From contig CAYVXG010000003.1 of NCBI GenBank assembly GCA_964455295.1, forward strand, positions 8,612 through 44,909: 36,298 nucleotides of DNA. The letters run 5' to 3'. The notes under the pieces were generated by a model. That model saw nothing but the letters and a program-made list of their open reading frames with translations. It searched no databases and had not been told where the DNA came from. The position numbers were made by a program, and so were the translations under genes. Below are positions 1 to 15,241 of the stretch, one piece after another; position 1 is the stretch's first letter, and each line of letters opens with the position of its first letter. The stretch comes from an uncultured Candidatus Peribacteria bacterium (GTDB taxonomy: Bacteria > Patescibacteriota > Gracilibacteria > Absconditabacterales > Absconditicoccaceae).

Positions 1-206
1 TAATTGGAGTGAGAAAAGATGGAGGATTTAGTATCAAAGCACGTAGTACTCAAGATAACGATCTTATCAAGTTTGCTCATGATGGGGTGGAGGCTGAAGA
101 ATTAGTGTTTGATAAGGAAGGAAATATGATCTGACATAAAAAAGAATCTACTCTGGATCCTGAAGATAATAAGCCTGATAGCTGGGACTTTGATCCTGCT
201 GCCTAA
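1..206 (+). CDS. 3' end of an unidentified CDS (partial, runs off the window start)
   Basis: Frame 3 is open from the window edge to TAA 204-206 (...FAHDGVEAEELVFDKEGNMI[G]HKKESTLDPEDNKPDSWDFDPAA*). One in-frame TGA (132-134) is read as Gly. No family recognised. Confidence 0.5.
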
Positions 207-220
207 ACATTAACACAGGA

Positions 221-256
221 CTAAGATTTATTAAATATAATTTTTCTTAGTTTTTT
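221..256 (+). terminator. weak hairpin plus T-run after the partial CDS
   Basis: ctaaga (221-226) pairs with tcttag (245-250). The loop is 18 nt and is followed by T6 at 251-256. The large loop makes this weak. Confidence 0.3.
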
Positions 257-366
257 CTTATATGAAATTTCAAAATAATCTTGGTTTTGCTTTCTATAAA
301 AATATTATCTAAGATTGCTTCAGATTATATGAGATTATTAAAAAAATTATAAATCTACTTCTGCCT

Positions 367-2019
367 ATGATAAATATTAAGTACCAAAGTGACGACGAAG
401 ATTTACTGACAAGATTACTGAAAGTGAGAGGATTTGATACTCCTCAAGCTCAGTTAGATTTTTTGTCTCCAAACTTCAAAAATGCTCGGCATAGTCCTTG
501 GGGTTTGTCTGATATGGATAAAGCAGTAGTGAGGATTATCCATGCCATCCAAAATAAAGAAAAAATTATGATATTCTGAGATTATGATGCGGATGGGGTA
601 ACGAGTACTTATGTACTCTTTGATTTCTTCCGTACTTTTATAAAATTTGATACTATCAGTGTACAATTACCTCATAGACTGGAAGATGGATATGGTATCA
701 AATCTTATCATCTGGATCAAATCAAAGAAAAAGGAGTGGACCTGGTGATTACTGTAGATAATGGAATTACTGCCATAGAAGAATCTCTCCATGCTCAGGA
801 AATCGGACTTGATCTGATTATTACTGATCATCATCAACCACTTGAACAACATCCTACAGCAGTAGCAGTGGTAAATCCACAAATTTCTCCAGACTATCCT
901 TTTCATGAATTGTGTGGAGTAGGAGTAGTATTTAAACTTATTAATGCTCTTGCAGAAAGACTGGATTTTAGTACGGATATGAAAAAGCAGGTGCTCTACA
1001 GATATTTACCTATCGTAGCAATTGGAACGGTGGCGGATTGTGTTCCTCTCATTGGGGAGAATAGACTTTTTGTGAAAAAAGGACTGGAGATTATTAACAC
1101 CAAGCATCCTCATATGCCTGCTTCTCTCAGATCATTTCTTGAACATTTTAATCTCCACAAAAGACCGCTCACTACCACTGATATATGATACATGATCTGA
1201 CCAAGACTCAATGCTGCAGGAAGAATGCTCTCAGCTTATGAAGCATTTTATGCTCTTAGATATACAGGAGAAAAACAAAAAATATATCTCGAGAAACTAG
1301 GAAAACTTAATTTGGAAAGAAAAGGAATGCAAGATGAGATGATCAAAAAAGGTATTGAACAACTCGATCTGGACAAAAAAATTCTGATCCTTTGTGATGA
1401 AGAATATCATGAAGGAATAGTCTGAATAGTAGCGGGTAGACTAACAGAAAAATACTACAAACCAAGTATGGTCCTCAAAATTGATAGTGAAAAGGGTATT
1501 GGGGTAGCGAGCTTGCGTGGACCTGCATACTTTAGTGTGATTGATATGCTTTATCGTGTAGCGCCTTTACTGGATAGATTTGGTGGACATAAACAAGCAG
1601 GGGGACTTACGGTAAAAGTAGAAAACCTCCAAGAGCTTGTATCTCAGATGGAAGAGTATTGTGAGGAAATAGTAACAGAAGAAATGCTCAGAAGAATTAC
1701 TCATGTAGATACTATCCTTCATGAAGTAGATCTTCTAGAATCTAATTTCCGCCTCATTGATGCCCTCGCTCCCTTTGGAGAAGGTAATCGTGAACCAGCT
1801 TTACTTATTCAAAATGCTGTTATCAAACATAAACAAATAATCTGAAAAACGGGTAAATCTCACCTGAAGCTTTATGCTCAATGTGGGGCAAAACCCATCG
1901 AAATCATCCAGCGAAACAAGGGTGAAAACATTGATAATTTTGCTCTCAATGAAACTTATGATCTTGTGGTCTCTCATAGACGGGACGATCAAGAACGTTG
2001 GTATTTAGTGAGTGAGTAG
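367..2019 (+). CDS. recJ: single-stranded-DNA-specific exonuclease RecJ (DHH/DHHA1)
   Basis: All track fragments (367-579, 736-1188, 1225-1425, 1468-1845) are in frame 1 and separated only by TGA at 577, 1186, 1198, 1423 and 1843. The ORF ends at TAG 2017-2019. Read-through restores RecJ hallmarks: IMIF[G]DYDADGV, ITVDNG, ITDHH, DI[G]YMI[G]PRLNAAGR, EGIV[G]IVAGRL, GGHKQAGG. Confidence 0.92.
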
Positions 2020-2071
2020 TTTTCTAAGGGTGATATATAAAACTAATTATTTATCTTTCATTAAAAAATTT

Positions 2072-3121
2072 ATGTATCAATTTCCAGAACCAATCAAAGA
2101 ACTTCATAAAATATACTCACCAGATTTTCCAGATTTCTTAAGACCTTTTATGGAAGCTCCTGAAATGCAAAGATTAGGCGGAGTATCCCAAACCTGTGGT
2201 ATAGCTTTTACGAAATTTCATAATTACAAATTTTTACTTACCAGACTTGATCATAGTGTAGGAGTAGCTTTGATTATATGGTATTTTACACAAGATAAGA
2301 AGCAGACACTTGCAGGATTATTTCACGATATTAGTCACACAGCCTTTAGTCATGTAGGAGATTTTTTAAGAGGAGATTATGAAAATCAAGAATCCTCGGA
2401 AATATTTCATGATAAAATAATATCAAACTCACCTTCTATTATGAATGAATTAAAAAAACTTTGAATTAATTTTGAGGAGGTAAATGATTATACAAAATAC
2501 CCCATTGCAGATAACAATTGACCCCAACTGGCTTCTGATAGATTAGAATATAATTTTTGTGAACTTATCTGTTATAGTGGAGATCTTGAAAAGGTAAAAA
2601 GATTATATTCAGATATTGTGGTCTTAAAAAATGAGTACGAGGAAGATGAATTAGGCTTCCAAAGCTTGGAGAAAGCGCTTGAATTTGGTAATATAGCTAT
2701 AGATAATGATGCCCAAGTATTTTCAAGTTATGAATCAAAATTAGGTATGTCATTTTTAAGTGAACTCTTGAAAGATGCATTTGAGTCGTGATTATTTACT
2801 TTGAATGATCTTTATCAACTTACAGATATGGAAGTATTCTGAAAAATTGAGCAAGGAGGAAATGATTTACTCATCAAAAAATTAAAATACTTTCAAAATA
2901 TGAGATATTACAAAGTACGAGTTAATAAGCCTAAAATAGGGGAGTTTGTGGTAGATACAAAAAACAAAAGAAGATATATTGACCCTCTTGTAAAAACTAG
3001 AAATGGAAATATAAGACTTTCCAAATTAGATCAATGATTTAAAGAAAGAGCTGATTTACACAAGAATAAAACAGTAGAATGGGTTTCTTGTGATTGGGTT
3101 GAGGAAAGGAGTAAGAAGTAA
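2072..3121 (+). CDS. HD-domain metal-dependent phosphohydrolase (dGTPase/SAMHD1-like HD signature)
   Basis: ATG 2072 (MYQFPEP...) to TAA 3119-3121 in frame 2, with five in-frame TGA. Motifs RLDHSVGVA and LFHDISHTAFSH are present. The track ORF start at 2012 overlaps the recJ end and is probably not used. Confidence 0.8.
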
Positions 3122-3130
3122 TTTTCTTAG

Positions 3131-3300
3131 GGTTGAGGGCGTGTTGATATAAGATATAGTTGATGTATCTCGCAAAATTGTCATCAATAATCTTGATATG
3201 CAGCTAATTTGATAGTAACCCTTAGAATGGAATCTCTACTGAAGGCCTTGAGATATAGCAACCAAATGAATTAATGAACTGAAACATCTAAGTAGTTGAA
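3131..3300 (+). pseudogene. decayed 5'-domain fragment of a 23S rRNA gene (about 170 nt, no remainder of the gene)
   Basis: Exact 19-mer gaactgaaacatctaagta (3276-3294) equals the near-universal 23S helix-region motif GAACUGAAACAUCUAAGUA. Upstream there are colinear but degraded matches to the 23S 5' end: ggttgagggcg vs GGUUAAGCG/GGGCG, gatgtatctcgca vs GGAUGCCUUGGCA, gatatgc, ttagaatggaa vs CCGAAUGGGGAA. The conserved GAUGAAGGACG block is not recognisable. Confidence 0.5.
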
Positions 3301-3321
3301 GCTGCGTATTTATTTTTTCTC

Positions 3322-3347
3322 AAGTCGGTTTTTTATCCGGCTTTTTT
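3322..3347 (+). terminator. intrinsic terminator-like hairpin after the 23S-like relic
   Basis: aagtcgg (3322-3328) pairs with ccggctt (3337-3343) with one G-U. The loop is 8 nt and a T-run extends to 3347. Confidence 0.5.
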
Positions 3348-3461
3348 CTTCATTTTAACTTTCCATTGACTTTCTCCTCCCAATATTCATGATGATGGTG
3401 CTAAAGTAGATCTTTAATATCACCTATAAAATAAATTCCATAAACCAAAAAAATAAACTAT

Positions 3462-4193
3462 ATGAAAAAAATTACACTTTTATGTGTTTTTCTATGCTTT
3501 ATAGCATATGGGAATGCTCAACAAAATACTGATACTGAGATGGTTTCCATCTTAGAGCACAAAATTACTCTAGACAATATCTCTCCGGAGATAGAAAAAT
3601 TGTTCCTCAGGGGCTTTCATGTTGCGACCACGTCCAAAATGAGAGCTTGGGTGCAAGACATCCAGCAACTCAATGAAGAACAATATACACAGTACCTCAA
3701 TTATTGGGCATATTTTGACGCACAAAAATATTCGACCCCTACTGATACGGCATTAATAATAATGCTACAACGAATTCCACTATCTCAAAAGTTTTTTGGC
3801 AAGATGCCTAACAAACTGACAGATAAAGAGTTAGCTCAGTTAGGGAATGTAATGATTAACAACCACTTGGCTGTGTCGGTCGATAAAAAAACCTGGCTTT
3901 ACAGTAAAAATTTGTGCTTGTCTTCTTATTTGGATCTTAATACTATCCAATTTGATACACGCGCAAGTTATATTGAACACCATGTAAGTGTGGATTTGTT
4001 AGATAATTTCAGCGATAAACCGTATTTTGAAATAGTTCATTATGACGTGTGTCGTCTTATGTCGGCATCTCAGTTAAATGTTGTACCTATTTCTAATACT
4101 AAAAAAGTGATATTACGCTACAATCTTGGAGCAATCCTAATTGCCGGAGGAGAGAGATTTATTCTTTCTCAATTAAAATTTACATCAAGTTAA
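3462..4193 (+). CDS. secreted hypothetical protein (signal peptide)
   Basis: Intact 243-aa ORF with no TGA. The N-terminus MKKITLLCVFLCFIAYGNAQQ is a classic signal peptide ending A-x-AQ. A strong terminator follows. Confidence 0.75.
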   Translation: MKKITLLCVFLCFIAYGNAQQNTDTEMVSILEHKITLDNISPEIEKLFLRGFHVATTSKMRAWVQDIQQLNEEQYTQYLNYWAYFDAQKYSTPTDTALIIMLQRIPLSQKFFGKMPNKLTDKELAQLGNVMINNHLAVSVDKKTWLYSKNLCLSSYLDLNTIQFDTRASYIEHHVSVDLLDNFSDKPYFEIVHYDVCRLMSASQLNVVPISNTKKVILRYNLGAILIAGGERFILSQLKFTSS

Positions 4194-4229
4194 GAACTAT
4201 TTTAGTATAATCAGTTTCTAATAACCTAA

Positions 4230-4256
4230 GTAGAGGGTCTTTTCCCTCTACTTTTT
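4230..4256 (+). terminator. rho-independent terminator
   Basis: gtagaggg (4230-4237) pairs with ccctctac (4244-4251). The loop is 6 nt, followed by T5 at 4252-4256. Confidence 0.85.
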
Positions 4257-4286
4257 CATTATGTAAAATGTGATTAAAAAAACTTG

Positions 4287-4315
4287 TTGACTTTAGGGAT
4301 ATAAAACCATATAAT
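4287..4315 (+). promoter_or_regulatory. sigma70-type promoter
   Basis: TTGACT (4287-4292), a 17-nt spacer, then TATAAT (4310-4315). It lies 35 nt upstream of ATG 4351. Confidence 0.7.
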
Positions 4316-4350
4316 TCATTATTGATGATTTATTACTTATCAAGTATCCG

Positions 4351-5580
4351 ATGGATGATAAGCTGAATCCTACTCCTGTTAAAGTAAAGCCAGAAACAAT
4401 AAAAAACTTTTCCAAACAATTTCTCACTGGATTAGCTGCTTTTTCTGCTCTCTTGAGCACTCAAGCTAACGCACAGACCAATAAAATGTCTCCTCAGATT
4501 GCCCAACAATGGGAACAGAAAACCCAAGATGCAAAAGCTCACCAAGATGATGTATATCAATGCCTCCTACCCAATCATGATCACAGCACTCATGCTGATT
4601 CTGATCATGATAATCTGGATACTCGTAATGCGATGTATACGGATTGTGATACAGTAAGAGTATATGATCTGATTGTAGATGACAAAGAACGTAAAGATAA
4701 AGGTGAGTTTGAATACCTCATAGATAGTATGTATGCTGCAGAAGGAAGAAAGCGTAAACATCTTGGTAAAACCGTAGTACCTGTTACAGATGATGTAGCA
4801 AAACGGGCTATGAACAATACAGTAATGGCTATGCATTCAGATGCGATGTATTTTTTCCGTAACAATGTAAGAGATAGTCTTCCACCCTTAATCCAAGAAG
4901 CTTTAACATATATTTTGGAAACCTATAGACCTGATATTATCAATATAACTGTGCCAGGATTTGTATCTGGAGGAGCAACTATGGGACCAAATTGGAGCAC
5001 AGGAAATCCCGTATATTCCAATCAAGTAAATGTAACTGTCATATCCAATACTCAATGGGATAGTGATGATGTGGAAAAACAAAAAAGATATTATTGGTTA
5101 AAACTCCACGAAGAAGGACATCTCCAAGGAAAACAGCACCCTGATAAATCAAGTCCTTGTCCATGACGAATAGTTCTTCCCGAATGGAAAGGATATATGG
5201 CGAGCTCCATGTGGTGGGACCTAACTCTTGATGATACTCAAATGAATAAGGAGAATTCACTCAAAGCTACTCCATTATTTCTCAAACAAAACGAAAAAAG
5301 AGAGTCTGACTGTACAGTTTCACTCGCAAATCCAGATCTCAATGAAGTAGAAATCAGTTTATTCCCAAATCCTGCTTCTACTAGCATTACTATTCATAAT
5401 CCAGATAATCTCATCAATATCCCTAAAGTAAGCATCACTGACATGATGGGGAATACACAAAAAGCTGGTATGCAAGAAGATAATACTATCAATCTCCAAC
5501 ATTTACCTGGAGGTGTTTATTTCATACAATTACCTCTCAAAAATGGTAAGATGAAAGTAGTGCGTATTGTAAAAGTGTAA
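4351..5580 (+). CDS. secreted HExxH-motif (putative zinc metallopeptidase) protein with T9SS-type (Por) C-terminal sorting domain
   Basis: Track ORFs 4351-5166 and 5197-5580 share frame 1 and are joined through one TGA (5164-5166). Signal-like N-terminus ...LTGLAAFSALLSTQANAQ. HEEGH at 5107-5121. The C-terminal ~80 aa (ISLFPNPASTSITI...ITDMMGN...LQHLPGGVYFIQLPLKNGKMKVVRIVKV) matches the type A T9SS CTD pattern. Confidence 0.75.
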
Positions 5581-5648
5581 TATAATCTGAAATAGTGGGG
5601 AGTTTTCTTAGTGTTTTCATTATTATTCTGAAAATTCATAATTAATAG

Positions 5649-5676
5649 TCTCAGTAATTTATTATTGAGATTTTTT
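5649..5676 (+). terminator. rho-independent terminator
   Basis: tctcagta (5649-5656) pairs with tattgaga (5663-5670) with one G-U, followed by T6 at 5671-5676. Confidence 0.65.
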
Positions 5677-5677
5677 A

Positions 5678-5773
5678 ATGAAGAAGCCAGTTGTTATTTG
5701 AATTGACGGTATACATAGGTCGGGAAAAGGTACTCAAAATAAACTCATTCTCAGTAATTTTTTATTTTTTTAA
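5678..5773 (+). pseudogene. truncated N-terminal fragment of a P-loop nucleotide kinase
   Basis: 31-codon ORF MKKPVVI[G]IDGIHRSGKGTQNKLILSNFLFF*. It contains only a Walker-A/GKGTQ start and then stops. The 12-bp direct repeat tctcagtaattt occurs at 5649-5660 and 5749-5760, one copy just upstream and one inside the 3' end of the ORF. Confidence 0.45.
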
Positions 5774-6509
5774 ATATGACTTTAGATAAAATTAAACTCT
5801 TAATCTAATACATTATTTTAGCAAACTCTAAAGATTTCTTATATACAAAAAATAATATGATGCCATCCATGAAAATGTAATTCTTTAGTATGCTGTATAT
5901 AAAATGGTTGATAATCGGTGCCAATGAAGCAATTGTAGGAGCTACAGCTTTAACTCATAATCTAAATTATATAGTAAAATATAATTCAGAGGTGGAAGAA
6001 GGAAAAGGACTTCGCAAAGAATTCCTTAGTAAAGCTTCTTTACTTTAGAGAAAATAATTAAAATTGAAAATGTTTTCTCAAAAACTAAAGCTATTAGAGC
6101 GAAAAAAAATGCATCCTGAAGATATGACATTAAGTAATGCAGATACTCTTTTAAATTACTTTCTACTACCCTTATTTTCTTTGCGGAAAAATATTTAAAA
6201 GAAGTAAAAGTAGATATTCATCATCGTTGCTTATCAAATCACTAGTAGATAAATGACTCTTTTAGAAAAAGGTATTTATTTTTTCATATTCTGTATGAAA
6301 AAATAAATATTTAAAATTTGTGATAGATAATTTAAAGAATATGGAGTAATATGTTGGAAACTTTAAAAGATGAAGATCTAACAGAGGTGTTGGAAACTTC
6401 TAATATTTTATAAATAATCAATTTTCTCTCTCCTTACTAGGTAAGTAACAAATAATATTAGATTTCTTATTACTTTCATTACTTTTCTGAAATATAATTT
6501 TTATATTGT

Positions 6510-6526
6510 CAATAATTTAATTATTG
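6510..6526. promoter_or_regulatory. perfect 8-1-8 palindrome just upstream of the RNR gene (candidate operator or 5'-UTR hairpin)
   Basis: caataatt-t-aattattg at 6510-6526. It lies between a TATAAT at 6493-6498 and ATG 6538. Confidence 0.3.
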
Positions 6527-6537
6527 TTGATAGTATA

Positions 6538-8244
6538 ATGAAAAAATTTAATTACTCAAAACAATCAATAGAAGTTCTTCAAAAGGGGAATATTTTATGA
6601 AAAAACGAACTACCCGAAGACATGATTACAAGAATCATTACATCAACTGCAAAAATTGAAATAGATTATTTTAATCAAGATCCTGCTGCATTAAGACATT
6701 TCTTATCTTCTCTGGAAGATTATTTGATTACAAAAAAGATCGTTCCTAGTACTCCAATATTAACAAATTTGTGAAGAGTAAATGGGTATCCTATGTCAGC
6801 TTGTATTGTTCCAGATATTGATTTTACTCACAATAAAAAAAATATAAAGGCAATCATTGATTCTCTTCATTTAGAAGGGATGGGAACTGGTTTTAATTTT
6901 TCTGAATTACAGGAACCCCATAAAATAATTTATTTTTTAAATGATATTGCTAATGAATTACAAAATTCTTGAAAACAAAATAGACCAGTAGGTAATATGG
7001 GAATTATGAATATTTATGATAAAAATATTGAGAATTTTATTGATCTAAAAATAGAATGAATTAATAAAAAGATAGATTGGAAATTTAATTTTTCAATTGA
7101 TATTGATAATGCTTTTATAGATTCTTTAAGTAATAATAAAAATATAATATTGACAAATGGCGTATCAATAAGCGCAAGAAAACTTTTCAAAAAAATCTGT
7201 TTTTCGGCTTATGAATGCGGAGATCCAGGTATTGTGCGTTTAGACTTAATGAACAAAGATAATCCACTTGAAAGTATTTCTAAATACATAGCTACTGCTC
7301 CTTGCGGGGAAGTTGGATTAGCTGCTTGAGAGACATGCCAATTTTCTTCAATAAATATTTCAGAGTGCGTAAAGTCATCATATAATGGAAAAATTGAAAT
7401 AAATTATGAACTTTTAAAAAATATTACTCATCTGCTTGTGCGCTTTTTGGATGATATGCTTGAACATAGTATCAAAAATTATTCCCAATCTAGGGTAAGA
7501 GAAATTGCTATTATGAAAAGAAAAATATGAATTTGAGTTTGTGGATTTGCAGATTTTTTAATTAAAATGAATCTACCTTATGAGTCTCCAGAAGCAATTC
7601 AAAAAGCAGAGGAAATTATGAGCTTCATAAATCTTGAATCCAAGAAAGCTAGTATTGAATTAGCAAAAACTAGAGGAGCATTTCCAAAAATTCAAAATTC
7701 AAAATTAATTAATTCTTTATTTTACTCAGAGAGATTTTGAGAATCTAATAATAATTGGCAGAAAATTGACTCTAATATTCAGAAGTTCTGAATTAGAAAT
7801 AGTTCCACAACTGCGCTCCCACCTACCTGAAGAAGTAGTATTATTTTTGATACCTCACAACAAATCGAACCCATATTTCATTTAAGAGATAATAATTGAG
7901 AAATTAGAGCAGATTTAGATAAATGTTTGAAAAATACTTATCAGGGAGTATATTTTAATGACGTTATAGAAGTTATTGCTAATACGTGAAGCTGTCAATG
8001 AGTAGATTTTCTTCAAAAAGAAATATATAAGACATCAAAGGAAATATCCTCTTTAGGACATATAAATATGTTACTAGCATTTCAAAAATACACTGATGAA
8101 GCTATTTCTAAAACAATAAATTTACCTAATAACTCCACCCTTGAAGAAATAATGGATATATATAATCAAGCTTTTGAAAAAAAACTAAAATGAATAACAA
8201 TTTATAGAGATTCGAGCAGAGAGTTTCAACCAATTAAGCTTTAA
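6538..8244 (+). CDS. nrdJ: class II (adenosylcobalamin-type) ribonucleotide reductase, short form
   Basis: ATG 6538 to TAA 8242-8244, frame 1, 568 codons. It is invisible in the standard-code track because of about 14 in-frame TGA. The table-25 translation shows PMSACIV, ATAPCGEV (canonical NPCGE loop), ETCQFSSINI, RKI[G]I[G]VCGFADFL, STTALPPT[G]RSS, SKTINLP and LK[G]ITIYRDSS. Confidence 0.8.
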
Positions 8245-8259
8245 TTTTTTAAAAAAAAC

Positions 8260-8823
8260 ATGAATTTAGTACTTAATAAAAATATTTGACTGGTGGGAGT
8301 AAGTGGAGTTGGGAAATCTACTTTTGTAGAAAATTTTAAAGATATATTATTTCATTACTTATCTCTTTCATCATTTGTTAGAGAGGAGACAGTAAAAAAG
8401 AATTTGGTTCCACACAGAGAAAACTTTGCTTTTGTTTCTTGAGAATTAAGAAAGACACTTGGAAATGACTATTTAGCTAAATTAGCTTATAATGTTATCA
8501 GAGGGAATAATGATTTTTATATTATTGATGGAATAAGACATCCTGAGGAAATAGAATATCTTAGGGGACATATGTATATTGACTTTATAGGAATTATAGT
8601 TGAAGATAAAAAAGATTTAACTGCAAGAATTTTAAATAGGAAAAGACCTACTGATATTCTTAAGGTGGATAATATTTTAAAAAGTATTAATAGAGAATAT
8701 TCTTCTGATATAATGAATGTAAAGAAATGCCTTGAACTATCTAATATAATTATAAGTAATAATTGAACTCTTGAGGAGTTTAAAACTAAAATATCAATAC
8801 TAATGCATGATTATATAGTCTAA
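8260..8823 (+). CDS. P-loop nucleotide/nucleoside kinase (UPF0200 / dephospho-CoA-kinase-like family)
   Basis: ATG 8260 to TAA 8821-8823, with 3 in-frame TGA. Walker A I[G]LVGVSGVGKST. IIDGIRHPEEIEYLR and NN[G]TLEEFKTKI resemble the UPF0200-type kinases. Confidence 0.7.
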
Positions 8824-8874
8824 AATTCTATTGAATAGACCTTAGTCCCTTTTTTATTTTAAATAATTAAAAAA

Positions 8875-9330
8875 ATGTCTAATTATTATCAATATTGTAT
8901 AAAATTTGTTATTTTTAATATAGAATGCAATAAAATACTTTTATGTAAAAGAAAATGAGAAAATGATTTTAATAATACATATAGTTTTGCTGGTTGAAAA
9001 CTAGAAAACTCTGATAAAGATATCTGGATATGAGCTAGTAGAGAGAAGACGGAAGAACTTTGAAATAATTGTAGGATAGAAGTATATAAGGAGTTAGCTA
9101 TATCTCAGTATTATATTAAAAATAATTGAGTCCACATGATTTTGTCTCATCATTTTTGTATTTTTTTATGAGGGCTAATACGCCTTGGAGAAGAATATGA
9201 ATCTTATAAATGGTTTAATCTAGACCAAATATGAGAAGAAAAAAATATTATCCCTACGATTCCTATTATAGTCAAAAAAATGCAGTCATTTATTCGTTCG
9301 TTAAATAAATTTACTCGCATTAAGTTGTAA
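8875..9330 (+). CDS. Nudix hydrolase
   Basis: ATG 8875 to TAA 9328-9330, with 7 in-frame TGA. Nudix box AG[G]KLENSDKDIWI[G]ASREKTEEL[G]N (REx2EExG). Confidence 0.75.
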
Positions 9331-9366
9331 AAATAGGAAGATATTTATATATTATAATTTTATAGT

Positions 9367-9915
9367 ATGTTTACTGAAATAGAAATTAAATTCTTAAATC
9401 AAAATTATGAAGAATTTACTGATTTAATGAAAAAAAATAATGCTCAACAAATCCAGCATAGGAACCTTTTTAAAAGGTTAGTATATTCTCCTATTATATC
9501 TAGTAAATTTAAATCATTTTTGAGACTTAGAACTAACTGAGAATATACTGCATTAACCTATAAAATTCTTGAAGGGTATAGTGTAGATGGCATAAAAGAA
9601 TTAGAGACTACAGTAGGAGATTTTGAAGTTACTAAAAAATTACTTTCTTTTATTGGATTAGAGCCTACTTCTTATCAAGAAAATTATAGAGAGATCTGGA
9701 AAATAAAAAATACTGAGATATGTTTTGATGAACGACCGATGATAAAGCCCTATGTAGAAATAGAATCTCCCACTTTGGAGGAGCTAAAGGAAATCTGTAC
9801 TTCCTTAGGTTATAATTATGAGGAATGAGTATTTGGTACAGTAGATAATGTTTATGAGCAAGAATTATGACTTAATAAAGAAGAATTTAATGCTATTCCT
9901 TATTTAGTTTTTTAA
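9367..9915 (+). CDS. CYTH-domain protein (triphosphate tunnel metalloenzyme / class IV cyclase-like)
   Basis: ATG 9367 to TAA 9913-9915, with 3 in-frame TGA. The N-terminal EIEIKF matches the ExExK CYTH signature. At about 180 aa it is typical CYTH size. Confidence 0.7.
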
Positions 9916-9926
9916 TAAATTACTTG

Positions 9927-11648
9927 ATGAATTCTGAACAAATAAAAAAATATCATAAAGATATATATGAACAATTTTATTTAGTTCATGATATTGTATT
10001 ATCTTCTCCTTTTATAATTAATTGGTCTTGAGATGTTCGTAATAACGATAACAGAGTAAGCATTAAACAAAAAATTCCCTTTCGTATGTATATAGGGTGA
10101 AAAAAAATAAAAGAAAAGGGAATAAGATTATGAGAGATACAAGAATATAATCCTCTTACTAATACCTTTGCTATTTGCAATCCTGATGCATACTTGTCTT
10201 ATGACCAAGAGGTACTTAATGCTCTTAATGAAAATTTCCCTATTGATTATGGATTAGAGATATCAATTTTGACTGAACTTCCAAAATCTTTTGGGATGTC
10301 GTTTACTACTGTTTTTACTTCACTCATATTCTTGCTCTGTGAACTATTCACTGGGAAGCTCGACTCGGAAAAATTAATAGAGGGTATCAAGGGAGAAATC
10401 TCAGATCAAACAAATCTTTATCTTAAGGAACAATTTTCTAATCCCTTCCAGTTAAAACTGAAAGGAGTTGGTAAAATTGGTTATTCTACTAAGATTACTT
10501 CACTATTTGAGGGGGATTTCCCAGTTATAGGATTTAGAACTCCAAAAAATGTTTTTTATGGTTTTAGAATGAATGAAGTATTCAAAAGCAATGCTCCTAA
10601 ATATAATTTACCAATAGATTATGCTATAGTATATAGTGGAAAGTCTTCTAATCTAGAAACTATTGATGGTATTAATACTCATCAAAATGATTGGAATGAT
10701 AAAATGAAATTTTTATTTGAGCCGCTTTTTGCGGATCTATTTACTCACCATGATATCGATCCTTATCCTCAGTTCTATAACCTTTTTCTTGCGGAGTCAT
10801 CAGAAAATATTCATGATATTTACAGTAAGGTTATGTGATCTATAAGTATTGAGATTTTATATGGATTCTATAAGGTGCTACAACCCTCAGCTTCCTTTGA
10901 TGAAGCTTCACCATTATTAGGATCTTTACAAAAGATTATGTTGGGAAATAGACTTACAAGAAAAAATGACTATCATATTATTGACTTTATGGATGAGATC
11001 AGAAAAATCTTTAAAGATATAAAACATGCTATTTTTCCAAATGATAGTACAATTTCTTCGGGCTGTGCTGTAGTAGCTTCCTTGAATGGTTATGAAAAAT
11101 GAAGATTTGATCAAGTTAATGATTTAGCCCAGTCTTTTGGAGGAGGGACGTATTACTCAAGCTGGATCGATTGAACTGAGAAAAAATGATTAATTATAGA
11201 ACAATTTTTAAGTAAAGGGATTATGTCTTCAAGGGTAAAGAAAAATGATTGTATCAAAGGTAAAAAATCTGCTTGAGTTTTGTTGTTGTATGAAAATCTT
11301 CAAGAAGCTATTAAACTAAATGATATATGTGTAGATATGATTCATTCTAAAATATATATAAATTGAGACGCTACTACTAGTAATGAACTTTCGACTCAAT
11401 GATTTACATGCGTATTGCTTAATCAAATTATATTATCTCCTTCAGAGAAAATATTCTCTAAAGAATTACCTGCTTCTTCATACGCAAAAAATAAAAGCGA
11501 ATTTATGGGAAAAATTATTTATCCCCTTATTAAAGTAATAAAAGAGAGAACTGGAAAAGAACTTAACGTTCAATGCGATGGAAGTGGAGCAAATTATCAT
11601 TGTAGTATGGATTTTGCAGATTTAAGTGTAGTTATCATAGGGGAATAA
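9927..11648 (+). CDS. GHMP-kinase-like protein with degenerate motifs and a C-terminal OmpR/PhoB-type winged-helix-like segment (tentative)
   Basis: Track ORFs 10194-10838, 10875-11102 and 11415-11648 plus upstream sequence from ATG 9927 are one frame (573 aa, about 10 TGA). N-terminal SSPFIINWS[G]DV resembles GHMP motif I. LPKSFGMSFTT resembles a degraded motif II. The C-terminal ICVDMIHSKIYIN[G]D..ELSTQ[G]FTCVLLNQIIL..EKIFSKEL....GKIIYPLIKVIKERTG fits the trans_reg_C pattern. Confidence 0.6.
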
Positions 11649-11786
11649 TTACTCCTTATCCTCTTAATATATGAAATAATTAAAAATTAATACAACATTG
11701 GCAAGTAAGTATACTACCTAATATCATTTAAAGTTTATAAAAAATTATCACTTCTATTATATTTTTTTAAGATTATAATTCATAAT

Positions 11787-12287
11787 ATGAATAATGTAGC
11801 TTATATTGATGGACAAAATCTATATCTCTGAACACAAACTGAGTGATGGACTATCGATCTAAAAAAATTTAGAGTATACTTGAAAGATAAATTTGATATA
11901 CAAGAAGCATATTATTTTCTTTGATACTTATCAGATGAGACGCAAGATCTTTATAGCACTCTACAAAAAGCAGGATTTATAGTTTTCTTTAGAGAGCATA
12001 CTTCTGCTTTAAAAGGTAAGAAGAAAGGAAATGTAGATGTAGATATTGTATTTGAAGTAATGAGAAGAATAATAGAGGAGAAAGATTTTGATAAGATTGT
12101 TTTAGTATCAGGTGATGGAGATTATATAAAGCTTGTAAAATATCTTATTTTAAAAAATTTATTAAAGAAAATACTATTTCCTAATAACAATAACTCTTCT
12201 TTATACAACAAACTAGGTAATAAATACTACTCTTACTTAGGAGATATAAAAAGCAAAATTTCATATAATAAAAAAAGGGGATCTTAA
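11787..12287 (+). CDS. NYN-domain (LabA-like, PIN-fold) putative ribonuclease
   Basis: ATG 11787 to TAA 12285-12287, with 3 in-frame TGA. N-terminal AYIDGQNLYL and C-terminal IVLVSGDGDY are the two NYN/LabA signature blocks. TATAAT at 11774-11779 ends 7 nt before the ATG, so the mRNA may be leaderless. Confidence 0.75.
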
Positions 12288-12384
12288 TGCACCTGCACAT
12301 TTCAGAACCCTTTCGTGGTAATACTATACTAGTATAATAAAATTTATAAAATAATCAAGTTCTTATAACTACAATATTATAAAC

Positions 12385-13197
12385 CTACCCCAACAAATTC
12401 TTCCTCACTATTTCCACATCTTCTTTATAGGTAATCCCATATCGATTATCTTGAGCAATAAGAACTTCACACTCGAGAGAAAATTTCTTGATGAGTCGAT
12501 TGCAGTACAGACCAATATAGTATTCCTCTCATTCTTTGGCTGTAAGTTGCCATTTTTCAAACTCAGACTTGAGGTGAAGGAGAGTATGATCATGAAACAT
12601 CCAGAAATTCATGCTGGCGATAGATTGAGGATCAATGTTTTTTCCGTCTCTATCTTGTAAACCATCTGGAGTGCGAGTAATTCAGAATGTTTCCGTGATG
12701 GATTGAAGGTGATTGTCCTCTATAGTACAGATTCCTCTATTTACGCTTCCATTTTCACTGAGGGTTTTTTCTAGAATATACCCTATCATACCAAAAGTAT
12801 CTACCTTGCAATTTTCTAGTCGTCTGGAGGCTTGTTGCATACTATCAGCTCCGTAATAATCATCTGCATTGATAAGAAGACAGGGAGAGTGAAGAACTGG
12901 GAGAACACAAGAGAGTGCATGACCTGTTCCTCGAGGCTTAGTTCTTGGTTCTTCTATTTCTTGATATACATATTCTGTGTTTAAGATATCTTTATAGGTA
13001 TTTCAGATTATATTTTTAAAATCTTCTTCAATTTCTTTACGGATGATGTAGATGACATCAGTAAATCCTGCATGAATAGCATCTTGAAGTGTGAAATCTA
13101 GTAATGTTTCACCCTTATCTCCTATTCTTGCGATTTGCTTAATTCATCCAAATCTACTACCCATCCCAGCGGCAAGAATAATCAATGTTTTCTGCAT
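12385..13197 (-). CDS. sugar-phosphate nucleotidyltransferase (NTP_transferase family)
   Basis: Minus-strand ATG at 13195-13197 to TAG at 12385-12387 (270 aa, 4 TGA). N-terminus [17 protein letters not shown][G]IKQ, and LLINADDYYG. The start overlaps the lepA stop (TAATG). Track ORFs 12408-12593 and 12451-12660 are fragments or antisense. Confidence 0.8.
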
Positions 13198-14597
13198 TAT
13201 CTTTTCATCATATTGATAAATATATCGTTTGGTATACTCACTTTTCCGATTTCTTTCATTTTTTTCTTGCCTTCTTTTTGTTTTTCCAAAAGTTTTCTTT
13301 TTCTACTGATGTCCCCTCCATAACATTTGGCGAGTACATCTTTTTTGATAGCAGAAATAGTTTCTCTTGCGATAACCTTAGATCCAAAAGCTGCTTGAAT
13401 AGCAATACTAAACAAATGTTTAGGAATAAGTTCCTTGAGTTTTTCGCAAATCTCTATTCCTATCTCAAATCCTTTGGGTTCGTACACTACCATACTGAAA
13501 GCTTCCACTACTTCCCCAGCAATCAAAATATCAAGTTTTGCTAGATCGCCAACTCTGTAGGTTTTGAACTCGTAATTCATAGTTGCGTAGCCCTTTGTGA
13601 GTGATTTTAATTGGTCATAAAAATCAATAATAATCTCTCCGAGTGGCATTTCATATTTTCGTATTACTCTGTCGTCATTGAGAAATTCTGTTCCCTTGAG
13701 GATTCATCTAGCATTATTGCATAGCCCTGATATATTACCATAATATTCTGAAGGACCTACGACTTCCACCTCTGCGATTGGCTCAAGTATTTCGGCTACA
13801 TCGCCATTTGGTGGCATATCTCCTCCAGATCTCACGATCAACCAATCTTTCAAGATTTCTGCATATGTTTCTCTCACATAGTGAGGATCTTCGTTCATAA
13901 TTTCAATATTCGGATTCTTATATTTGAGAACAAATTTTCGTAAACCAGTAGCAATAAGATCGTCAATGTTCACTCCTGTTTTTACCGATTCATGTTTGAA
14001 ATTCTTGAGTCTTACGACGTATACTACATTGGGAATAGTGAAAATAGTCTGAATATTATATTCTCTTTCCAGTCTTTCCTTGACAATATCCATATGAAGC
14101 ATACCCAAGAATCCACAACGGAAACCGAATCCCATGGCTTTATTGTTTTCATACTCATATTCGATTGAAGAATCATTGATAGAAAGTTTTTCAAAAGAAT
14201 CTCTGAGTTTTTCAAATTCATTATTTGCTACAGGATATACTCATGCAAATACATAGGGTTTGATTTTACGAAAACCAGGAATTGCATAGGGGAGCAGAAG
14301 TTCAAAATCATTGTTGTAATTTACCCCGTCGATCAAAGTATCCCCAATTTTGATATCTCTTACAGACTTTGCACCTGTCACGATATAACCAATTTCCCCA
14401 GTATTGAGGCTTTTTACGATTTTATAGTTAGGATTGAAGTAGCCAACTTCAGTGATGGTAATTTTTCTTTCTGAATGGATAAGTGAGATTTGTTGATTAC
14501 CAAAAAACTGTCATTCCACAACTTTCACATAAGCAACCACGCCTTTGTAAGGATCATATACACAATCAAAGATAAGAGCTTTGGAAATAGTACTCAA
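13197..14597 (-). CDS. lepA: elongation factor 4 (LepA) lacking the entire N-terminal GTPase domain (5'-truncated; start codon uncertain, possibly TTG at 14595-14597)
   Basis: Fragments 13197-13649 and 13704-14135 plus upstream sequence are one frame (3 TGA, e.g. YVFA[G]VYP). Homology begins at [21 protein letters not shown] (about 14582), which corresponds to domain II. It continues through [26 protein letters not shown] to the LepA C-terminal domain ([24 protein letters not shown]). An in-frame TAA at 14622-14624 closes the frame upstream. No G1-G4 motifs occur in any frame of 14598-14785. Confidence 0.8.
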
Positions 14598-14735
14598 ATT
14601 GCTAATATTAGTGGTTAAAAATTATATTTTAAAATCTGCAAAGATATATTGAAATTGCCTGCTTTTTCAAGTAAGTACTTTTATCCTCCTGCGTTAATTA
14701 AAAGTTTTTTTATTTACATTTGTCAATAGAAGATA

Positions 14736-14762
14736 AAAATCTCACCATAAAGATGAGATTTT
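14736..14762 (-). terminator. rho-independent terminator of the pilin-like gene
   Basis: aaaatctca (14736-14744) pairs with tgagatttt (14754-14762). The loop is 9 nt. The minus-strand reading is followed by TTTTTATCTTCT. Confidence 0.7.
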
Positions 14763-14785
14763 ATTATTGTAATTCAAAGATCAGA

Positions 14786-15241
14786 TTATTGAGTGTTTGT
14801 AATCAAGTTGATAACCCAGAATACGAAACTTACAAGTAACCAAGAGATACCAATCATGATAAGTCCGATACCAGCTTGTCTCAATATTGTGGATCCATCA
14901 CCGTAAGCTTTAGCGTCTCCAGCAGCAGTAAGCATTTTGAATCCAGCATAAAGACAGATGATCAAAGCAATAAGAGCTAATAATCCAAGTACCCAGTTGA
15001 TAGCGATTTTAACTGCGGCGATTAAACCTCCAGCTCCACCAGTATCAGCTTGACCTGCTTTAGCAACTCCTACTCCAGCTGCAGAGTCAGTTGTCTTAGT
15101 AAAGGTATTATTTCCATCAGTAGGTTGAGTGAATCCGCCAGCATTTCCTGCTCCACCATTGGCAAATGCAAATCCAAATAATCCTACAACTGCTACACTA
15201 GCAAGGAGCAATTGGGTACTAATTTTTTTTACGAGTTTCAT
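14786..15241 (-). CDS. T4SS-type pilin-like protein (TrbC/VirB2 superfamily, CPR/Gram-positive type)
   Basis: 151-aa ORF with no TGA. Signal peptide MKLVKKISTQLLLASVAVVGLFGFAFA, then a Gly/Ala/Thr-rich spacer, then two hydrophobic helices separated by a short polar loop (INWVLGLLALIALIICLYAGFKMLTAAGDAKAYGDGSTILRQAGIGLIMIGISWLLVSFVFWVI). This is the characteristic VirB2/T4SS-pilin layout. Confidence 0.6.
   Translation of the reverse strand: MKLVKKISTQLLLASVAVVGLFGFAFANGGAGNAGGFTQPTDGNNTFTKTTDSAAGVGVAKAGQADTGGAGGLIAAVKIAINWVLGLLALIALIICLYAGFKMLTAAGDAKAYGDGSTILRQAGIGLIMIGISWLLVSFVFWVINLITNTQ

What the first reader, a model, noticed from the sequence alone, without database searches (positions are those of the whole stretch)
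6538..12287. AT-rich, TGA-dense six-gene nucleotide island: possible code-25 phage-derived module or uncharacterised nucleotide-based system
Six co-directional genes are involved. The first five are packed with 11-51 nt gaps: short class II RNR, UPF0200-like P-loop nucleotide kinase, Nudix hydrolase, CYTH triphosphate-tunnel enzyme and a GHMP-like protein with a wHTH-like tail. A separately promoted NYN (PIN-fold) nuclease follows.

The block is visibly more AT-rich than its flanks and carries the highest TGA density in the window apart from the IS. Its left border is about 0.95 kb of gene debris and its right border is a convergent gene. RNR, nucleotide kinase and Nudix together form a classic phage auxiliary dNTP-supply set. 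CYTH, Nudix and an NYN nuclease together are also the kind of parts list seen in nucleotide-signalling or nucleotide-depletion defence systems. I know of no named system with this composition.
Basis: partly seen in the sequence, partly recalled or inferred. Interest (0 to 1): 0.65.

Follow-up and report, generated by a model that had tools for sequence, protein, structure and literature searches.

The report
Mosaic nucleotide-enzyme island, not one system
The six genes are real and lie in the most AT-rich stretch of this tiny Absconditabacterales genome, but they are a patchwork: a mobile three-gene deoxynucleotide-supply cassette overwrote part of an older resident module and sits beside an unrelated nuclease gene, so this is not a single phage-defence system.

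Summary
Under code 25, six co-directional ORFs encode a short class II RNR, a UPF0200-type P-loop kinase, a Nudix hydrolase, a CYTH enzyme, a GHMP-fold protein and a NYN nuclease. The block (27.1% GC) is the most AT-rich 5.75 kb in the 0.89 Mb assembly. Its high TGA density is what any low-GC gene of this genome shows.

The block is not one unit.
1. RNR-kinase-Nudix (6538-9330) is a conserved, horizontally moving cassette. It is collinear at 51-54% aa identity in another code-25 contig, where it lies near a large serine recombinase. All three genes are also in G019, and two are in G006. The same Nudix subfamily is fused to this RNR clade in other lineages.
2. A sister strain carries a Tmk-like kinase and a 382-aa ORF in place of the cassette. 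The window keeps a 26-codon remnant of that kinase at 5672-5749, so the cassette overwrote resident genes.
3. CYTH and the GHMP-fold protein are the resident part. They are linked to Tmk/Gmk-like kinases in four other genomes.
4. NYN is unlinked elsewhere.

A sister species has a Type III R-M system in the same slot, which marks a gene-turnover hot spot. No evidence was found for a defence system or for phage origin. The best reading is an accessory, O2-independent dNTP-supply cassette inserted next to an older phosphate/nucleotide module.

The parts
5649..5766 (+). 18-nt direct repeat TCTCAGTAATTT(A/T)TTATT at 5649-5666 and 5749-5766. The second copy starts exactly at the left junction of the replaced segment.
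   Evidence: the repeat finder family D7, 94% identity. The junction position comes from the alignment with L047. It may be recombination microhomology or chance in AT-rich DNA.
5672..5749 (+). Remnant (26 codons, including the P-loop GIDGIHRSGKGTQ) of a resident Tmk-like P-loop kinase gene that was truncated by the replacement.
   Evidence: tblastn of the sister-strain 233-aa kinase P0022: 84.6% identity over residues 3-28, E 2e-10. The DNA alignment with L047 loses homology at about 5749. G002 keeps an even shorter remnant, up to about 5706.
5750..6537 (.). AT-rich (23.7% GC) non-coding filler of unknown origin on the left of the cassette. It contains a perfect 16-nt hairpin at 6273-6309.
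   Evidence: No homology to L047, L050 or elsewhere in the genome. Composition, hairpin I12. No Rfam family and no tRNA.
6538..8244 (+). Short (568 aa) class II-type (NrdJ-like) ribonucleotide reductase. It has no ATP cone and no C-terminal Cys tail. The Cys89/Cys256/Cys267/Glu258 set is present, but Ala254 replaces the catalytic Asn.
   Evidence: PF02867 1.8e-74. TIGR02504 NrdJ_Z scores 348.9 bits, below its 399.95 cut-off. T. maritima NrdJ 1XJE at 7.6e-56, with TNPCGE aligned to TAPCGE. The clade alignment is.
8260..8823 (+). UPF0200/AAA_17 P-loop nucleotide kinase (dNMP-kinase-like).
   Evidence: AAA_17 3e-8; PRK08356 1.2e-11; PHROG 139 dNMP kinase 6e-8; the kinase part of the PADLOC dCTPase model 3.4e-17. 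PDB 3H0K/3LW7 at 2e-7. 51% identical to the ortholog after the RNR in L050.
8875..9330 (+). Nudix hydrolase with an intact REx2EE core. It belongs to the same subfamily as the Nudix domains fused to this RNR clade.
   Evidence: PF00293 3.7e-10; best NCBIfam hit is the NudG-type pyrimidine (d)NTP diphosphatase, below its cut-off. Identity is 54% to the L050 neighbour, 37% to G006, 40% to G019, and 45% to the Nudix domain of the RNR-Nudix fusion P0116.
9367..9915 (+). CYTH (triphosphate tunnel metalloenzyme) with the N-terminal ExExK motif (TEIEIK). This is a resident gene; homology with the sister strain resumes at about 9376.
   Evidence: PF01928 6e-10. Full-length orthologs at 32-33% identity lie next to P-loop kinases in G005 and G004, and at 42% in L045.
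9924..11648 (+). 574-aa GHMP-kinase-fold protein with an eroded motif II (LPKSFGMSFTT against the family consensus LPRGVGLGFGS) and a conserved C-terminal domain of about 115 aa (SSYSKNKN motif) that may be a winged helix. Resident gene.
   Evidence: Fold search: all top-50 PDB hits are GHMP kinases. Family alignment A1. The C-terminal domain model has pLDDT about 90, but its best PDB hits (BaeR, RepE, PurR) are not significant, E of 0.4 or more. The family is patchy, found in 20 of 61 relatives.
11787..12287 (+). NYN (LabA-like, PIN-fold) nuclease. It is an independent gene and probably a later insertion.
   Evidence: PF01936 5.2e-15. NYN genes are multicopy and never adjacent to CYTH or the 574-aa family in 60 relatives. 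In G002 the 3' remnant of the 574-aa gene abuts the NTP-transferase gene with no NYN between them.
12385..13197 (-). Right border: a convergent NTP-transferase gene with normal composition (37% GC). It is syntenic in G002 and in the sister strain.
   Evidence: PF00483 2e-8. 77% aa identity in G002. Synteny.

Best explanation
The 'island' is a gene-turnover slot between a Por-tail secreted-protein gene and the lepA/NTP-transferase pair. It has been filled in layers.

Layer 1, resident and older. This was a Tmk-like P-loop kinase, a 382-aa ORF, CYTH and a GHMP-fold protein. CYTH and the GHMP-fold protein survive intact.

Layer 2, recent. A 3.6-kb segment (about 5750-9375) replaced most of the Tmk-like kinase gene and all of the 382-aa ORF. 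It carries an RNR-kinase-Nudix cassette.

Layer 3. A stand-alone NYN gene.

How the cassette most likely works (inferred). It acts as an accessory, oxygen-independent dNTP-supply unit alongside the genome's class I NrdAB.
- The B12-type RNR makes deoxyribonucleotides.
- The Nudix enzyme hydrolyses particular (d)NTPs to (d)NMP plus PPi. Candidate roles are dUTP/dCTP to dUMP/dCMP, or clearing damaged dNTPs.
- The UPF0200/dNMP-kinase-like enzyme re-phosphorylates monophosphates.

How the resident pair most likely works (inferred). CYTH hydrolyses a triphosphate-bearing substrate. The GHMP-fold protein has a degenerate ATP motif and a possible DNA-binding tail, so it probably acts as a ligand sensor or regulator rather than a kinase.

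What is shown: gene identities, junctions, remnants, collinear conservation, fusions and composition. What is inferred: substrates and physiology.
For: 1. Mosaic structure.
- Sister-strain contig L047 (about 83% nt identity on the shared right side) reads Por - Tmk-like 233 aa - 382 aa - CYTH - 574-aa protein - NYN - NTP-transferase - LepA. It has no RNR, AAA_17 kinase or Nudix.
- Homology to the window ends at about 5749 and resumes at about 9376.
- The window retains 26 codons of the Tmk-like kinase at 85% identity.

2. Cassette coherence and mobility.
- L050 carries RNR (53%), kinase (51%) and Nudix (54%) in the same order. Homology covers exactly window 6538-9330.
- There the cassette lies in an AT-rich block (28-31% GC against 37-44% in the flanks), two genes from a 580-aa serine integrase.
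- G019 has RNR-Nudix-kinase and G006 has RNR-Nudix.
- Only 2 of 60 relatives have this RNR type.

3. Rosetta-stone links. Five of the best 120 RNR homologs are RNR-Nudix fusions and one is an RNR-CYTH fusion. The fused Nudix is 45% identical to the window's Nudix. The RNR-CYTH fusion sits inside an archaeal NrdR-NrdD-NrdG-ThyA/dCMP-deaminase-HD-thioredoxin cluster.

4. Accessory status. G000 keeps NrdB (95% identical to G002's) and Tdk on contig C58, which ends inside tdk. The class I system is therefore present and its nrdA lies in an assembly gap. G006 and G019 also have both RNR types.

5. Resident module. CYTH orthologs sit next to Tmk/Gmk-like kinases in G005, G004, L045 and L047, and next to the 574-aa family in G005, G004 and L047.

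6. Hot spot. G002 has a Type III R-M pair in the same slot. It is flanked by remnants of the Tmk-like gene start and of the 574-aa gene end.

7. Maintenance and expression. The cassette is present in at least 20 wastewater or sludge metagenomes. Pieces of it at 100% identity occur in two biofilm metatranscriptome assemblies.
Against: - No enzyme activity is shown.
- The RNR clade has Ala where all characterised RNRs have the catalytic Asn, and it lacks a C-terminal redox tail. Canonical RNR activity is therefore not guaranteed.
- The right junction falls exactly at the CYTH start, and an RNR-CYTH fusion exists. A functional link between the cassette and CYTH, and so selection for this placement, cannot be excluded.
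- The resident part is also AT-rich (28% GC), so composition alone does not separate the layers.
- The metatranscriptome evidence consists of low-depth contigs and could be DNA carry-over.
- The nrdA gene itself was not found in the assembly. Its presence is inferred from nrdB.
Confidence: 0.68

Rival explanations
1. The RNR-kinase-Nudix cassette, or the whole block, is the remnant of a code-25 prophage or integrative element that carried auxiliary dNTP-metabolism genes.
For: - RNR, dNMP kinase and Nudix are a common phage gene set. PHROG hits: phrog_84, phrog_139 and phrog_1198.
- In L050 the cassette lies in an AT-rich five-gene block next to a large serine recombinase (phrog_95 integrase, 4.6e-36).
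- TGA-Gly codons are used throughout, so the donor used code 25.
- The distribution is patchy.
Against: - The window has no integrase, structural gene, tRNA or att-like long repeat.
- IMG/VR has no relative of the RNR.
- The best phage RNRs are at most 33% identical, against 41-54% in cellular Absconditabacterales contigs.
- The L050 neighbours have no PHROG structural hits.
- In G006 and G019 the RNR has the host's own GC content.
Confidence: 0.2
2. The six genes, or Nudix+CYTH+NYN with the kinase, form one nucleotide-signalling or nucleotide-depletion anti-phage system.
For: - Weak PADLOC domain hits: kinase to the kinase part of dCTPase (3.4e-17), Nudix to candidate PDC-S07 (1.6e-11), and NYN to NYN/HEC-09.
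- The slot holds a Type III R-M system in G002.
- The cassette lies 2.3 kb from Cas1 in G019. The neighbourhood is therefore defence-island-like.
Against: - The components have different histories and partners.
- No relative keeps Nudix, CYTH and NYN together.
- The kinase lacks the deaminase domain that defines the dCTP-deaminase defence protein (37.7 bits against a cut-off of 400).
- CYTH and the 574-aa protein have no PADLOC hit.
- In other genomes the 574-aa family sits beside rpoD/gyrB housekeeping genes.
Confidence: 0.06
3. The block is ordinary, vertically inherited core nucleotide metabolism. Its AT-richness only reflects low expression or relaxed selection.
For: - All the enzymes are metabolic.
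- Low-GC genes elsewhere in the genome show the same TGA usage.
- The resident genes are AT-rich in the sister strain too.
- The cluster is identical in a 97%-identical population found in many samples.
Against: - The RNR type is found in only 2 of 60 relatives, its kinase in none of the four genus mates, and the 574-aa family in 20 of 61 relatives.
- The truncated Tmk-like gene and the sister-strain and G002 alternatives show replacement events.
- The cassette is compositionally foreign in L050 as well.
Confidence: 0.06

Closest known systems
Class II (adenosylcobalamin) ribonucleotide reductase NrdJ, e.g. Thermotoga maritima NrdJ (PDB 1XJE)
   Same: Same ten-stranded barrel domain (PF02867). 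The three active-site cysteines and the glutamate align. The best NCBIfam models are NrdJ/NrdZ.
   Different: - Only 568 aa.
- No ATP cone.
- No C-terminal cysteine-rich or redox tail, which most class II enzymes have (PMC5704485).
- Catalytic Asn replaced by Ala in the whole clade.
- Scores below the TIGR02504 cut-off.
Phage and cellular dNTP-synthesis gene sets (nrd genes with a dNMP kinase and a MutT/Nudix or dCTPase/dUTPase, as in T4-like phages; from established knowledge)
   Same: Same logic of reductase plus monophosphate kinase plus (d)NTP pyrophosphatase. PHROG families 84, 139 and 1198 match.
   Different: - The kinase is of the archaeal UPF0200 type.
- No phage context is present in the window.
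- The nearest relatives are cellular CPR and DPANN contigs.
- Nudix is fused to the RNR in some lineages.
UPF0200 protein SSO1041 / AdkA-like kinase (PDB 3H0K, 3LW7) and the kinase domain of the anti-phage dCTP deaminase
   Same: Full-length P-loop kinase similarity.
   Different: It has no deaminase domain, so it is not the defence protein. Its substrate is unknown.
CYTH / triphosphate tunnel metalloenzymes (CyaB class IV cyclase, bacterial and archaeal tripolyphosphatases). Kinase-CYTH pairing is known from plant TTM1/2 uridine-kinase-CYTH fusions (from memory).
   Same: CYTH domain above the Pfam cut-off, with the ExExK motif. It recurs next to a P-loop kinase.
   Different: Below the cyaB equivalog cut-off (34.7 against 57.95 bits). 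It forms its own subfamily with a C-terminal FGTVD..Y..ELG extension. Its partner is a GHMP-fold protein.
Thymidylate-kinase-like polyphosphate kinase PPK3 of Sulfolobus (PMC12995831)
   Same: It shows that Tmk paralogs in phosphate-metabolism operons can be polyP-dependent nucleotide kinases. TTMs degrade short polyP. This offers a model for the ancestral Tmk-like+CYTH pair.
   Different: No direct sequence comparison with PPK3 was made. The sister-strain Tmk-like kinase had no PDB match at E 0.01. The Tmk-like gene is destroyed in this window. This is a lead only.
GHMP kinases and their non-catalytic sensor relative Gal3p
   Same: GHMP fold (Gal3p 3V5R is among the hits). The window's copy has lost two of the three glycines of motif II, as a sensor would.
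   Different: It carries an extra conserved C-terminal domain of about 115 aa. It has no Pfam family. Most family members keep motif II and may be active kinases.

Membership tests
Class II RNR (NrdJ) | RNR barrel domain with the thiyl-radical Cys, the two redox Cys and the Glu | tested here: met
   PF02867 1.8e-74. C89, C256, C267 and E258 are invariant in the clade and align to TmNrdJ.
Class II RNR (NrdJ) | Conserved active-site Asn two residues before the radical Cys (Tm N320 / Ec N437) | tested here: not met
   TAPCGE in place of TNPCGE. Ala254 is invariant in 12 of 12 clade members.
Class II RNR (NrdJ) | Score above the curated equivalog cut-off (TIGR02504) | tested here: not met
   348.9 bits against a cut-off of 399.95.
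Class II RNR (NrdJ) | Adenosylcobalamin-dependent ribonucleotide reduction | not testable with these tools
   Needs an enzyme assay.
Prophage / integrative element | Integrase, structural or replication genes, and att repeats at the borders | tested here: not met
   None in or beside the block. A serine integrase lies near the cassette only in L050.
Prophage / integrative element | Relatives on viral contigs | tested here: not met
   No IMG/VR hit for the RNR or the 574-aa family. Phage RNRs are at most 33% identical.
Known anti-phage defence system (PADLOC) | Full-length matches to all components of a described system | tested here: not met
   Only partial domain hits. There is none for the RNR, CYTH or the 574-aa protein. 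The anti-phage dCTP deaminase model scores 37.7 bits against a cut-off of 400.
Single conserved operon/system of six genes | Co-occurrence and linkage of the components in other genomes | tested here: not met
   Linkage holds only within sub-sets: RNR-kinase-Nudix, and kinase-CYTH-GHMP. NYN is unlinked.
Horizontally acquired genomic island | Atypical composition, patchy distribution, alternative contents at the same site, gene remnants at the junctions | tested here: met
CYTH / TTM superfamily | CYTH domain above the Pfam cut-off with the N-terminal ExExK motif | tested here: met
   39.7 bits against a cut-off of 23.2. The sequence reads MFTEIEIKF.
GHMP kinase superfamily (574-aa protein) | GHMP fold | tested here: met
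   All of the top-50 Foldseek PDB hits are GHMP kinases, but the model pLDDT is 54 and TM-scores are 0.24-0.47.
GHMP kinase superfamily (574-aa protein) | Intact phosphate-binding motif II (PxGSGLGSSAA-like) | tested here: not met
   The window has LPKSFGMSFTT. The family consensus LPRGVGLGFGS is intact in most homologs.
OmpR/PhoB-type winged helix (C-terminus of the 574-aa protein) | Significant structural or sequence match to wHTH domains | tested here: inconclusive
   The domain model is confident (pLDDT about 90). The best hits (BaeR, RepE, PurR) have E of 0.4 or more and TM-scores of 0.3-0.4. No Pfam or PDB profile hit.

The most novel reading that the evidence does not exclude
The short, Asn-less, tail-less NrdJ-like clade of CPR and DPANN organisms may be a distinct kind of ribonucleotide reductase. 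Its turnover or substrate channel would depend on a dedicated Nudix partner, sometimes a CYTH partner, and a UPF0200 kinase. It would then spread as a self-contained RNR-kinase-Nudix cassette. Under this reading the placement of the cassette directly in front of the resident CYTH gene in this genome would be functional rather than accidental.
Probability: 0.2. Interest if true: 0.65.

Novelty: new variant of a known kind. Interest (0 to 1): 0.4.

Why it matters
- Absconditabacterales and other CPR bacteria live on scavenged nucleotides. A mobile, oxygen-independent dNTP-supply cassette is a plausible niche-adaptation trait in wastewater biofilms.
- The case shows that an AT-rich, TGA-dense block in a code-25 genome is not by itself a phage signature. 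TGA-Gly use simply tracks low GC.
- The same chromosomal slot holds three different contents in three close relatives: a resident kinase-CYTH module, an RNR cassette and a Type III R-M system. This gives a clean example of a gene-turnover hot spot in a 0.9-Mb genome.
- The repeated fusion and adjacency of one Nudix subfamily with an unusual RNR clade lacking the catalytic Asn is a concrete, testable biochemical lead.

Tried and rejected
1. 'Sole RNR of the genome, displacing class I'. This was suggested at first because PF02867 finds only this RNR in G000. It was rejected: nrdB (95% identical to G002's) and tdk sit on contig C58, which ends inside tdk, so nrdA lies in an assembly gap.

2. Phage origin. 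IMG/VR scans with the RNR and with the 574-aa family found nothing. INPHARED RNR hits are at most 33% identical. PHROG scans of the L050 neighbours found only the integrase.

3. Defence system. PADLOC gave only partial domain hits.

4. The 183-aa HHH_5 protein that precedes distant 574-aa homologs is not a CYTH relative.

5. The 382-aa ORF of the sister strain is not related to the Nudix-like methyltransferases found beside CYTH in G005 and G004. It has no Pfam or PHROG hit.

6. The promoter and terminator scan was uninformative in this AT-rich DNA (58 hits against 49.5 expected).

7. No riboswitch or other Rfam family, and no tRNA.

8. A PDB profile search with the 574-aa family found nothing. 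The fold search of its C-terminal domain was not significant.

9. The G001 NTP-transferase locus has a different gene order and was not informative.

10. Literature searches found no description of RNR-Nudix or RNR-CYTH fusions, or of this cassette. This is absence of evidence only.

Full report
**Observation.** Pfam and NCBIfam give the following:
- Ribonuc_red_lgC at 1.8e-74, with NrdJ/NrdZ models best.
- AAA_17/PRK08356.
- NUDIX at 3.7e-10.
- CYTH at 6e-10.
- Nothing for the 574-aa protein.
- NYN at 5.2e-15.

The kinase matches the UPF0200 protein SSO1041 in the PDB. An AlphaFold model of the 574-aa protein is poor (pLDDT 54), yet all 50 best PDB matches are GHMP kinases. 'GHMP-like' therefore holds at fold level.

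**Composition.** The window is C3:8612-44909 of a 0.89-Mb, 62-contig assembly with 33.4% GC. The block has 27.1% GC, about 4 SD below the mean, and is the most AT-rich 5.75-kb window in the assembly. I called 700 ORFs genome-wide. All six genes lie in the lowest 9% by GC.

TGA supplies 35% of Gly codons in the block against 13.5% overall. However, the pooled value for all genes below 30% GC is 30.5%, and after regression on GC only the Nudix gene is mildly high (z = 2.4). The TGA density is real but follows from AT-richness. It is not a separate mark of foreign or phage origin.

**The block is a mosaic.** A contig from a sister strain, L047, is about 83% identical in nucleotides on the shared part. 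Its order is Por-tail protein, Tmk-like kinase (233 aa), unknown 382-aa ORF, CYTH, 574-aa protein, NYN, NTP-transferase, LepA. It has no RNR, AAA_17 kinase or Nudix.

DNA alignments place the left end of shared homology at about window 5749 and the right end at about 9376, which is codon 3-4 of CYTH. Window 5672-5749 still encodes residues 3-28 of the Tmk-like kinase, including its P-loop, at 85% identity. The window's state is therefore derived. A segment of about 3.6 kb replaced most of the Tmk-like gene and all of the 382-aa ORF. That segment consists of 0.8 kb of unidentifiable 23.7%-GC DNA plus RNR, kinase and Nudix.

An 18-nt direct repeat has one copy 100 nt upstream and one exactly at the left junction. 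It may be recombination microhomology or chance.

**The RNR-kinase-Nudix trio is a travelling unit.** The evidence is as follows.
- Contig L050, from another code-25 organism, has the three genes in the same order at 53, 51 and 54% amino-acid identity. Nucleotide and translated homology to the window covers exactly 6538-9330.
- In L050 the trio and the next two genes (GreA-like, AAA_28) have 28-31% GC against 37-44% in the flanks. A 580-aa large serine recombinase follows them (Resolvase + Recombinase domains; phrog_95 integrase at 4.6e-36).
- G019 has RNR-Nudix-kinase at 43, 40 and 43% identity, 2.3 kb from Cas1. G006 has RNR-Nudix at 41 and 37%.
- Among 60 relatives only those two carry this RNR type. 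None of the four genus mates has the kinase.
- Of the best 120 RNR homologs in the 5.8-billion-protein set, five are RNR-Nudix fusions and one is an RNR-CYTH fusion. The fused Nudix domain of P0116 is 45% identical to the window's free-standing Nudix.
- The RNR-CYTH fusion sits in an archaeal cluster of NrdR, NrdD, NrdG, a ThyA/dCMP-deaminase fusion, an HD protein and thioredoxin.

These Rosetta-stone links place the Nudix firmly in deoxynucleotide metabolism with this RNR. The link for CYTH is weaker: the two CYTH domains share only 26% identity over 96 residues.

**Accessory, not essential.** PF02867 finds only this RNR in the assembly, while seven relatives all have a longer class I-type enzyme. 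That first suggested displacement. However, G002's cluster reads NrdB-Tdk-NrdA-...-Tmk-...-DHFR. In G000, NrdB (95% identical) and Tdk lie on contig C58, which ends inside tdk. The class I system is therefore almost certainly present and its nrdA lies in an assembly gap. The class II-type gene is a second RNR, as it is in G006 and G019.

**The resident part.**
- CYTH orthologs (32-42% identical over the full length) sit beside Tmk-like or Gmk-like P-loop kinases in G005, G004, L045 and L047. They sit beside the 574-aa family in G005, G004 and L047. In G005 and G004 a methyltransferase is also part of the cluster (a weak Nudix-like N-terminal hit was seen only for the G004 protein), with a separate Nudix gene nearby in G005.
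- The 574-aa family is patchy (20 of 61 relatives), fast-evolving (33% identity or less outside the species), and multicopy in some genomes.
- In more distant genomes the 574-aa gene stands alone beside rpoD/gyrB.
- Most members keep a GHMP motif II (LPRGVGLGFGS). The window's copy reads LPKSFGMSFTT.
- The conserved C-terminal domain of about 115 residues folds confidently (pLDDT about 90). Its secondary-structure order resembles an OmpR-type winged helix, but no PDB match is significant. The DNA-binding tail remains unproven.

**NYN and the hot spot.** NYN genes are common and multicopy. In no relative do they lie next to CYTH or the 574-aa family.

In the sister species G002 the same slot holds a Type III restriction-modification pair (Res 860 aa, Mod 658 aa, 27-28% GC). 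The pair lies between a short remnant of the Tmk-like gene start and a 35-codon remnant of the 574-aa gene end. That second remnant abuts the NTP-transferase stop codon with no room for NYN. Three close relatives thus have three different contents in one slot, and NYN looks like a separate, later arrival.

**Tests of the phage and defence readings.**
- IMG/VR scans found no relative of the RNR or of the 574-aa family.
- The best phage RNRs in INPHARED are at most 33% identical.
- The window has no integrase, tRNA or long flanking repeat near the block.
- No Rfam family, including riboswitches, lies in it.
- PADLOC gives only partial domain hits. The kinase matches the kinase part of the dCTP-deaminase model but has no deaminase.

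Defence-island-like neighbours exist: Type III R-M in the same slot in G002, and Cas1 near the cassette in G019. These are the only points in favour of a defence role, and they are guilt by location.

**Presence and expression.** The cassette occurs nearly word for word in at least 20 activated-sludge, wastewater and biofilm metagenomes from about ten studies. A contig from a strain about 97% identical spans Por-filler-RNR-kinase, so the junction is not an assembly artefact. Two biofilm metatranscriptome assemblies contain short 100%-identical contigs from the RNR, the kinase and Nudix, and a near-identical (6 differences) contig from the 574-aa gene. This is weak evidence of transcription.

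**Mechanism.** Steps marked as inferred are not shown by any result here.
- The cassette most likely gives the cell a second, oxygen-independent route to deoxynucleotides.
- The RNR is inferred to be B12-dependent, by family.
- The Nudix partner is inferred to convert particular (d)NTPs to monophosphates. The best, sub-threshold NCBIfam match is the NudG-type pyrimidine (d)NTP diphosphatase.
- The UPF0200/dNMP-kinase-like enzyme is inferred to re-phosphorylate monophosphates.
- For the resident pair, the inference is CYTH acting on a triphosphate substrate, plus a GHMP-fold sensor or regulator.
- A recent paper shows that Tmk paralogs can be polyphosphate-dependent nucleotide kinases (PPK3) and notes TTM tripolyphosphatases (PMC12995831). 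This is a lead for the ancestral Tmk-like+CYTH pair, not a test.

**An unexplained point.** In all 12 aligned members of this RNR clade, Ala replaces the active-site Asn (T. maritima N320), giving TAPCGE for TNPCGE. The proteins also end right after the barrel, without the C-terminal redox tail or Cys-rich domain that most class II enzymes use (PMC5704485). From my own recollection of the literature, not checked here, this Asn is essential in E. coli class I RNR. The clade may therefore have altered chemistry. Its habitual Nudix partner could be part of that story. This is the basis of the 'novel case'.

**Verdict.** The six-gene system and the defence idea are not supported. The finding is a new variant of a known kind, an accessory nucleotide-metabolism cassette in a gene-turnover hot spot. 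It is of moderate interest, mainly for the RNR-Nudix link and the unusual RNR active site.

Noticed in passing
window 7291-7308 (codons 252-257 of the RNR, TAPCGE); alignment A4: The whole short NrdJ-like clade (12 of 12 sequences from CPR, DPANN and other lineages) has Ala where RNRs have the catalytic Asn (TmNrdJ N320 / EcNrdA N437). It also lacks any C-terminal Cys tail. The three Cys and the Glu are invariant.
   Followed up: partly
L041 (G002:C27) 10542-15110: A sister species has a Type III restriction-modification pair (Res 860 aa, Mod 658 aa, 27-28% GC) in exactly the slot occupied by the island. It is flanked by remnants of the Tmk-like gene start and of the 574-aa gene end.
   Followed up: yes
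window 13197-14597 (-); L041 8214-9614; L047 8223-9623: The LepA gene is 466 aa, with only the EFG_C and LepA_C domains called and no GTPase domain. It has the same 466-aa length in G002 and in the sister strain. The truncation is therefore shared within the genus and is not an assembly artefact.
   Followed up: partly
genome contig C58 (about 1.9 kb): nrdB (95% identical to G002's) and tdk run to the contig end. A 30-aa remnant matching the C-terminus of G002's 602-aa serine-recombinase-like ORF lies upstream. nrdA, tmk and DHFR of the G002 cluster are missing from the assembly, presumably in a gap.
   Followed up: partly
G050 (code 11, same class), several contigs; G004:C6 4317-8139: The 574-aa GHMP-fold family is multicopy in some genomes. 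G050 has 15 matching pieces and about 8 genes. G004 has a tandem pair beside a PALP enzyme and GreA.
   Followed up: no
L043 (G019:C15) 1-5324: An open ORF of more than 1000 aa and Cas1 lie 2.3 kb upstream of the RNR-Nudix-kinase set in G019. The 2.3-kb gap (5324-7645) could hold cas2 or a CRISPR array but was not examined.
   Followed up: no
L045 6188-8549: In another code-25 contig the Tmk-like kinase-CYTH pair lies near a HIT/DcpS-type nucleotide hydrolase and a solute-binding protein. The 574-aa gene is absent there.
   Followed up: no
window 6273-6309: A perfect 16-nt inverted repeat (TATTTATTTTTTCATA / TATGAAAAAATAAATA, 5-nt loop) lies in the unidentifiable filler upstream of the RNR.
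   Followed up: no
L024 5583-6803 and L023 2151-3479: In G005 and G004 a 406-442-aa SAM-methyltransferase sits in the kinase-CYTH-GHMP cluster. The G004 protein has a weak Nudix-like N-terminal hit (E 0.003). CYTH triphosphatase, Nudix and methyltransferase together recall RNA 5'-end (cap-like) chemistry. This idea is untested.
   Followed up: no
window 4351-5580: The left-flank gene carries a Por_Secre_tail (T9SS type A sorting) domain (5.5e-10), which is unusual for a CPR genome. It is syntenic in G002 and in the sister strain.
   Followed up: no
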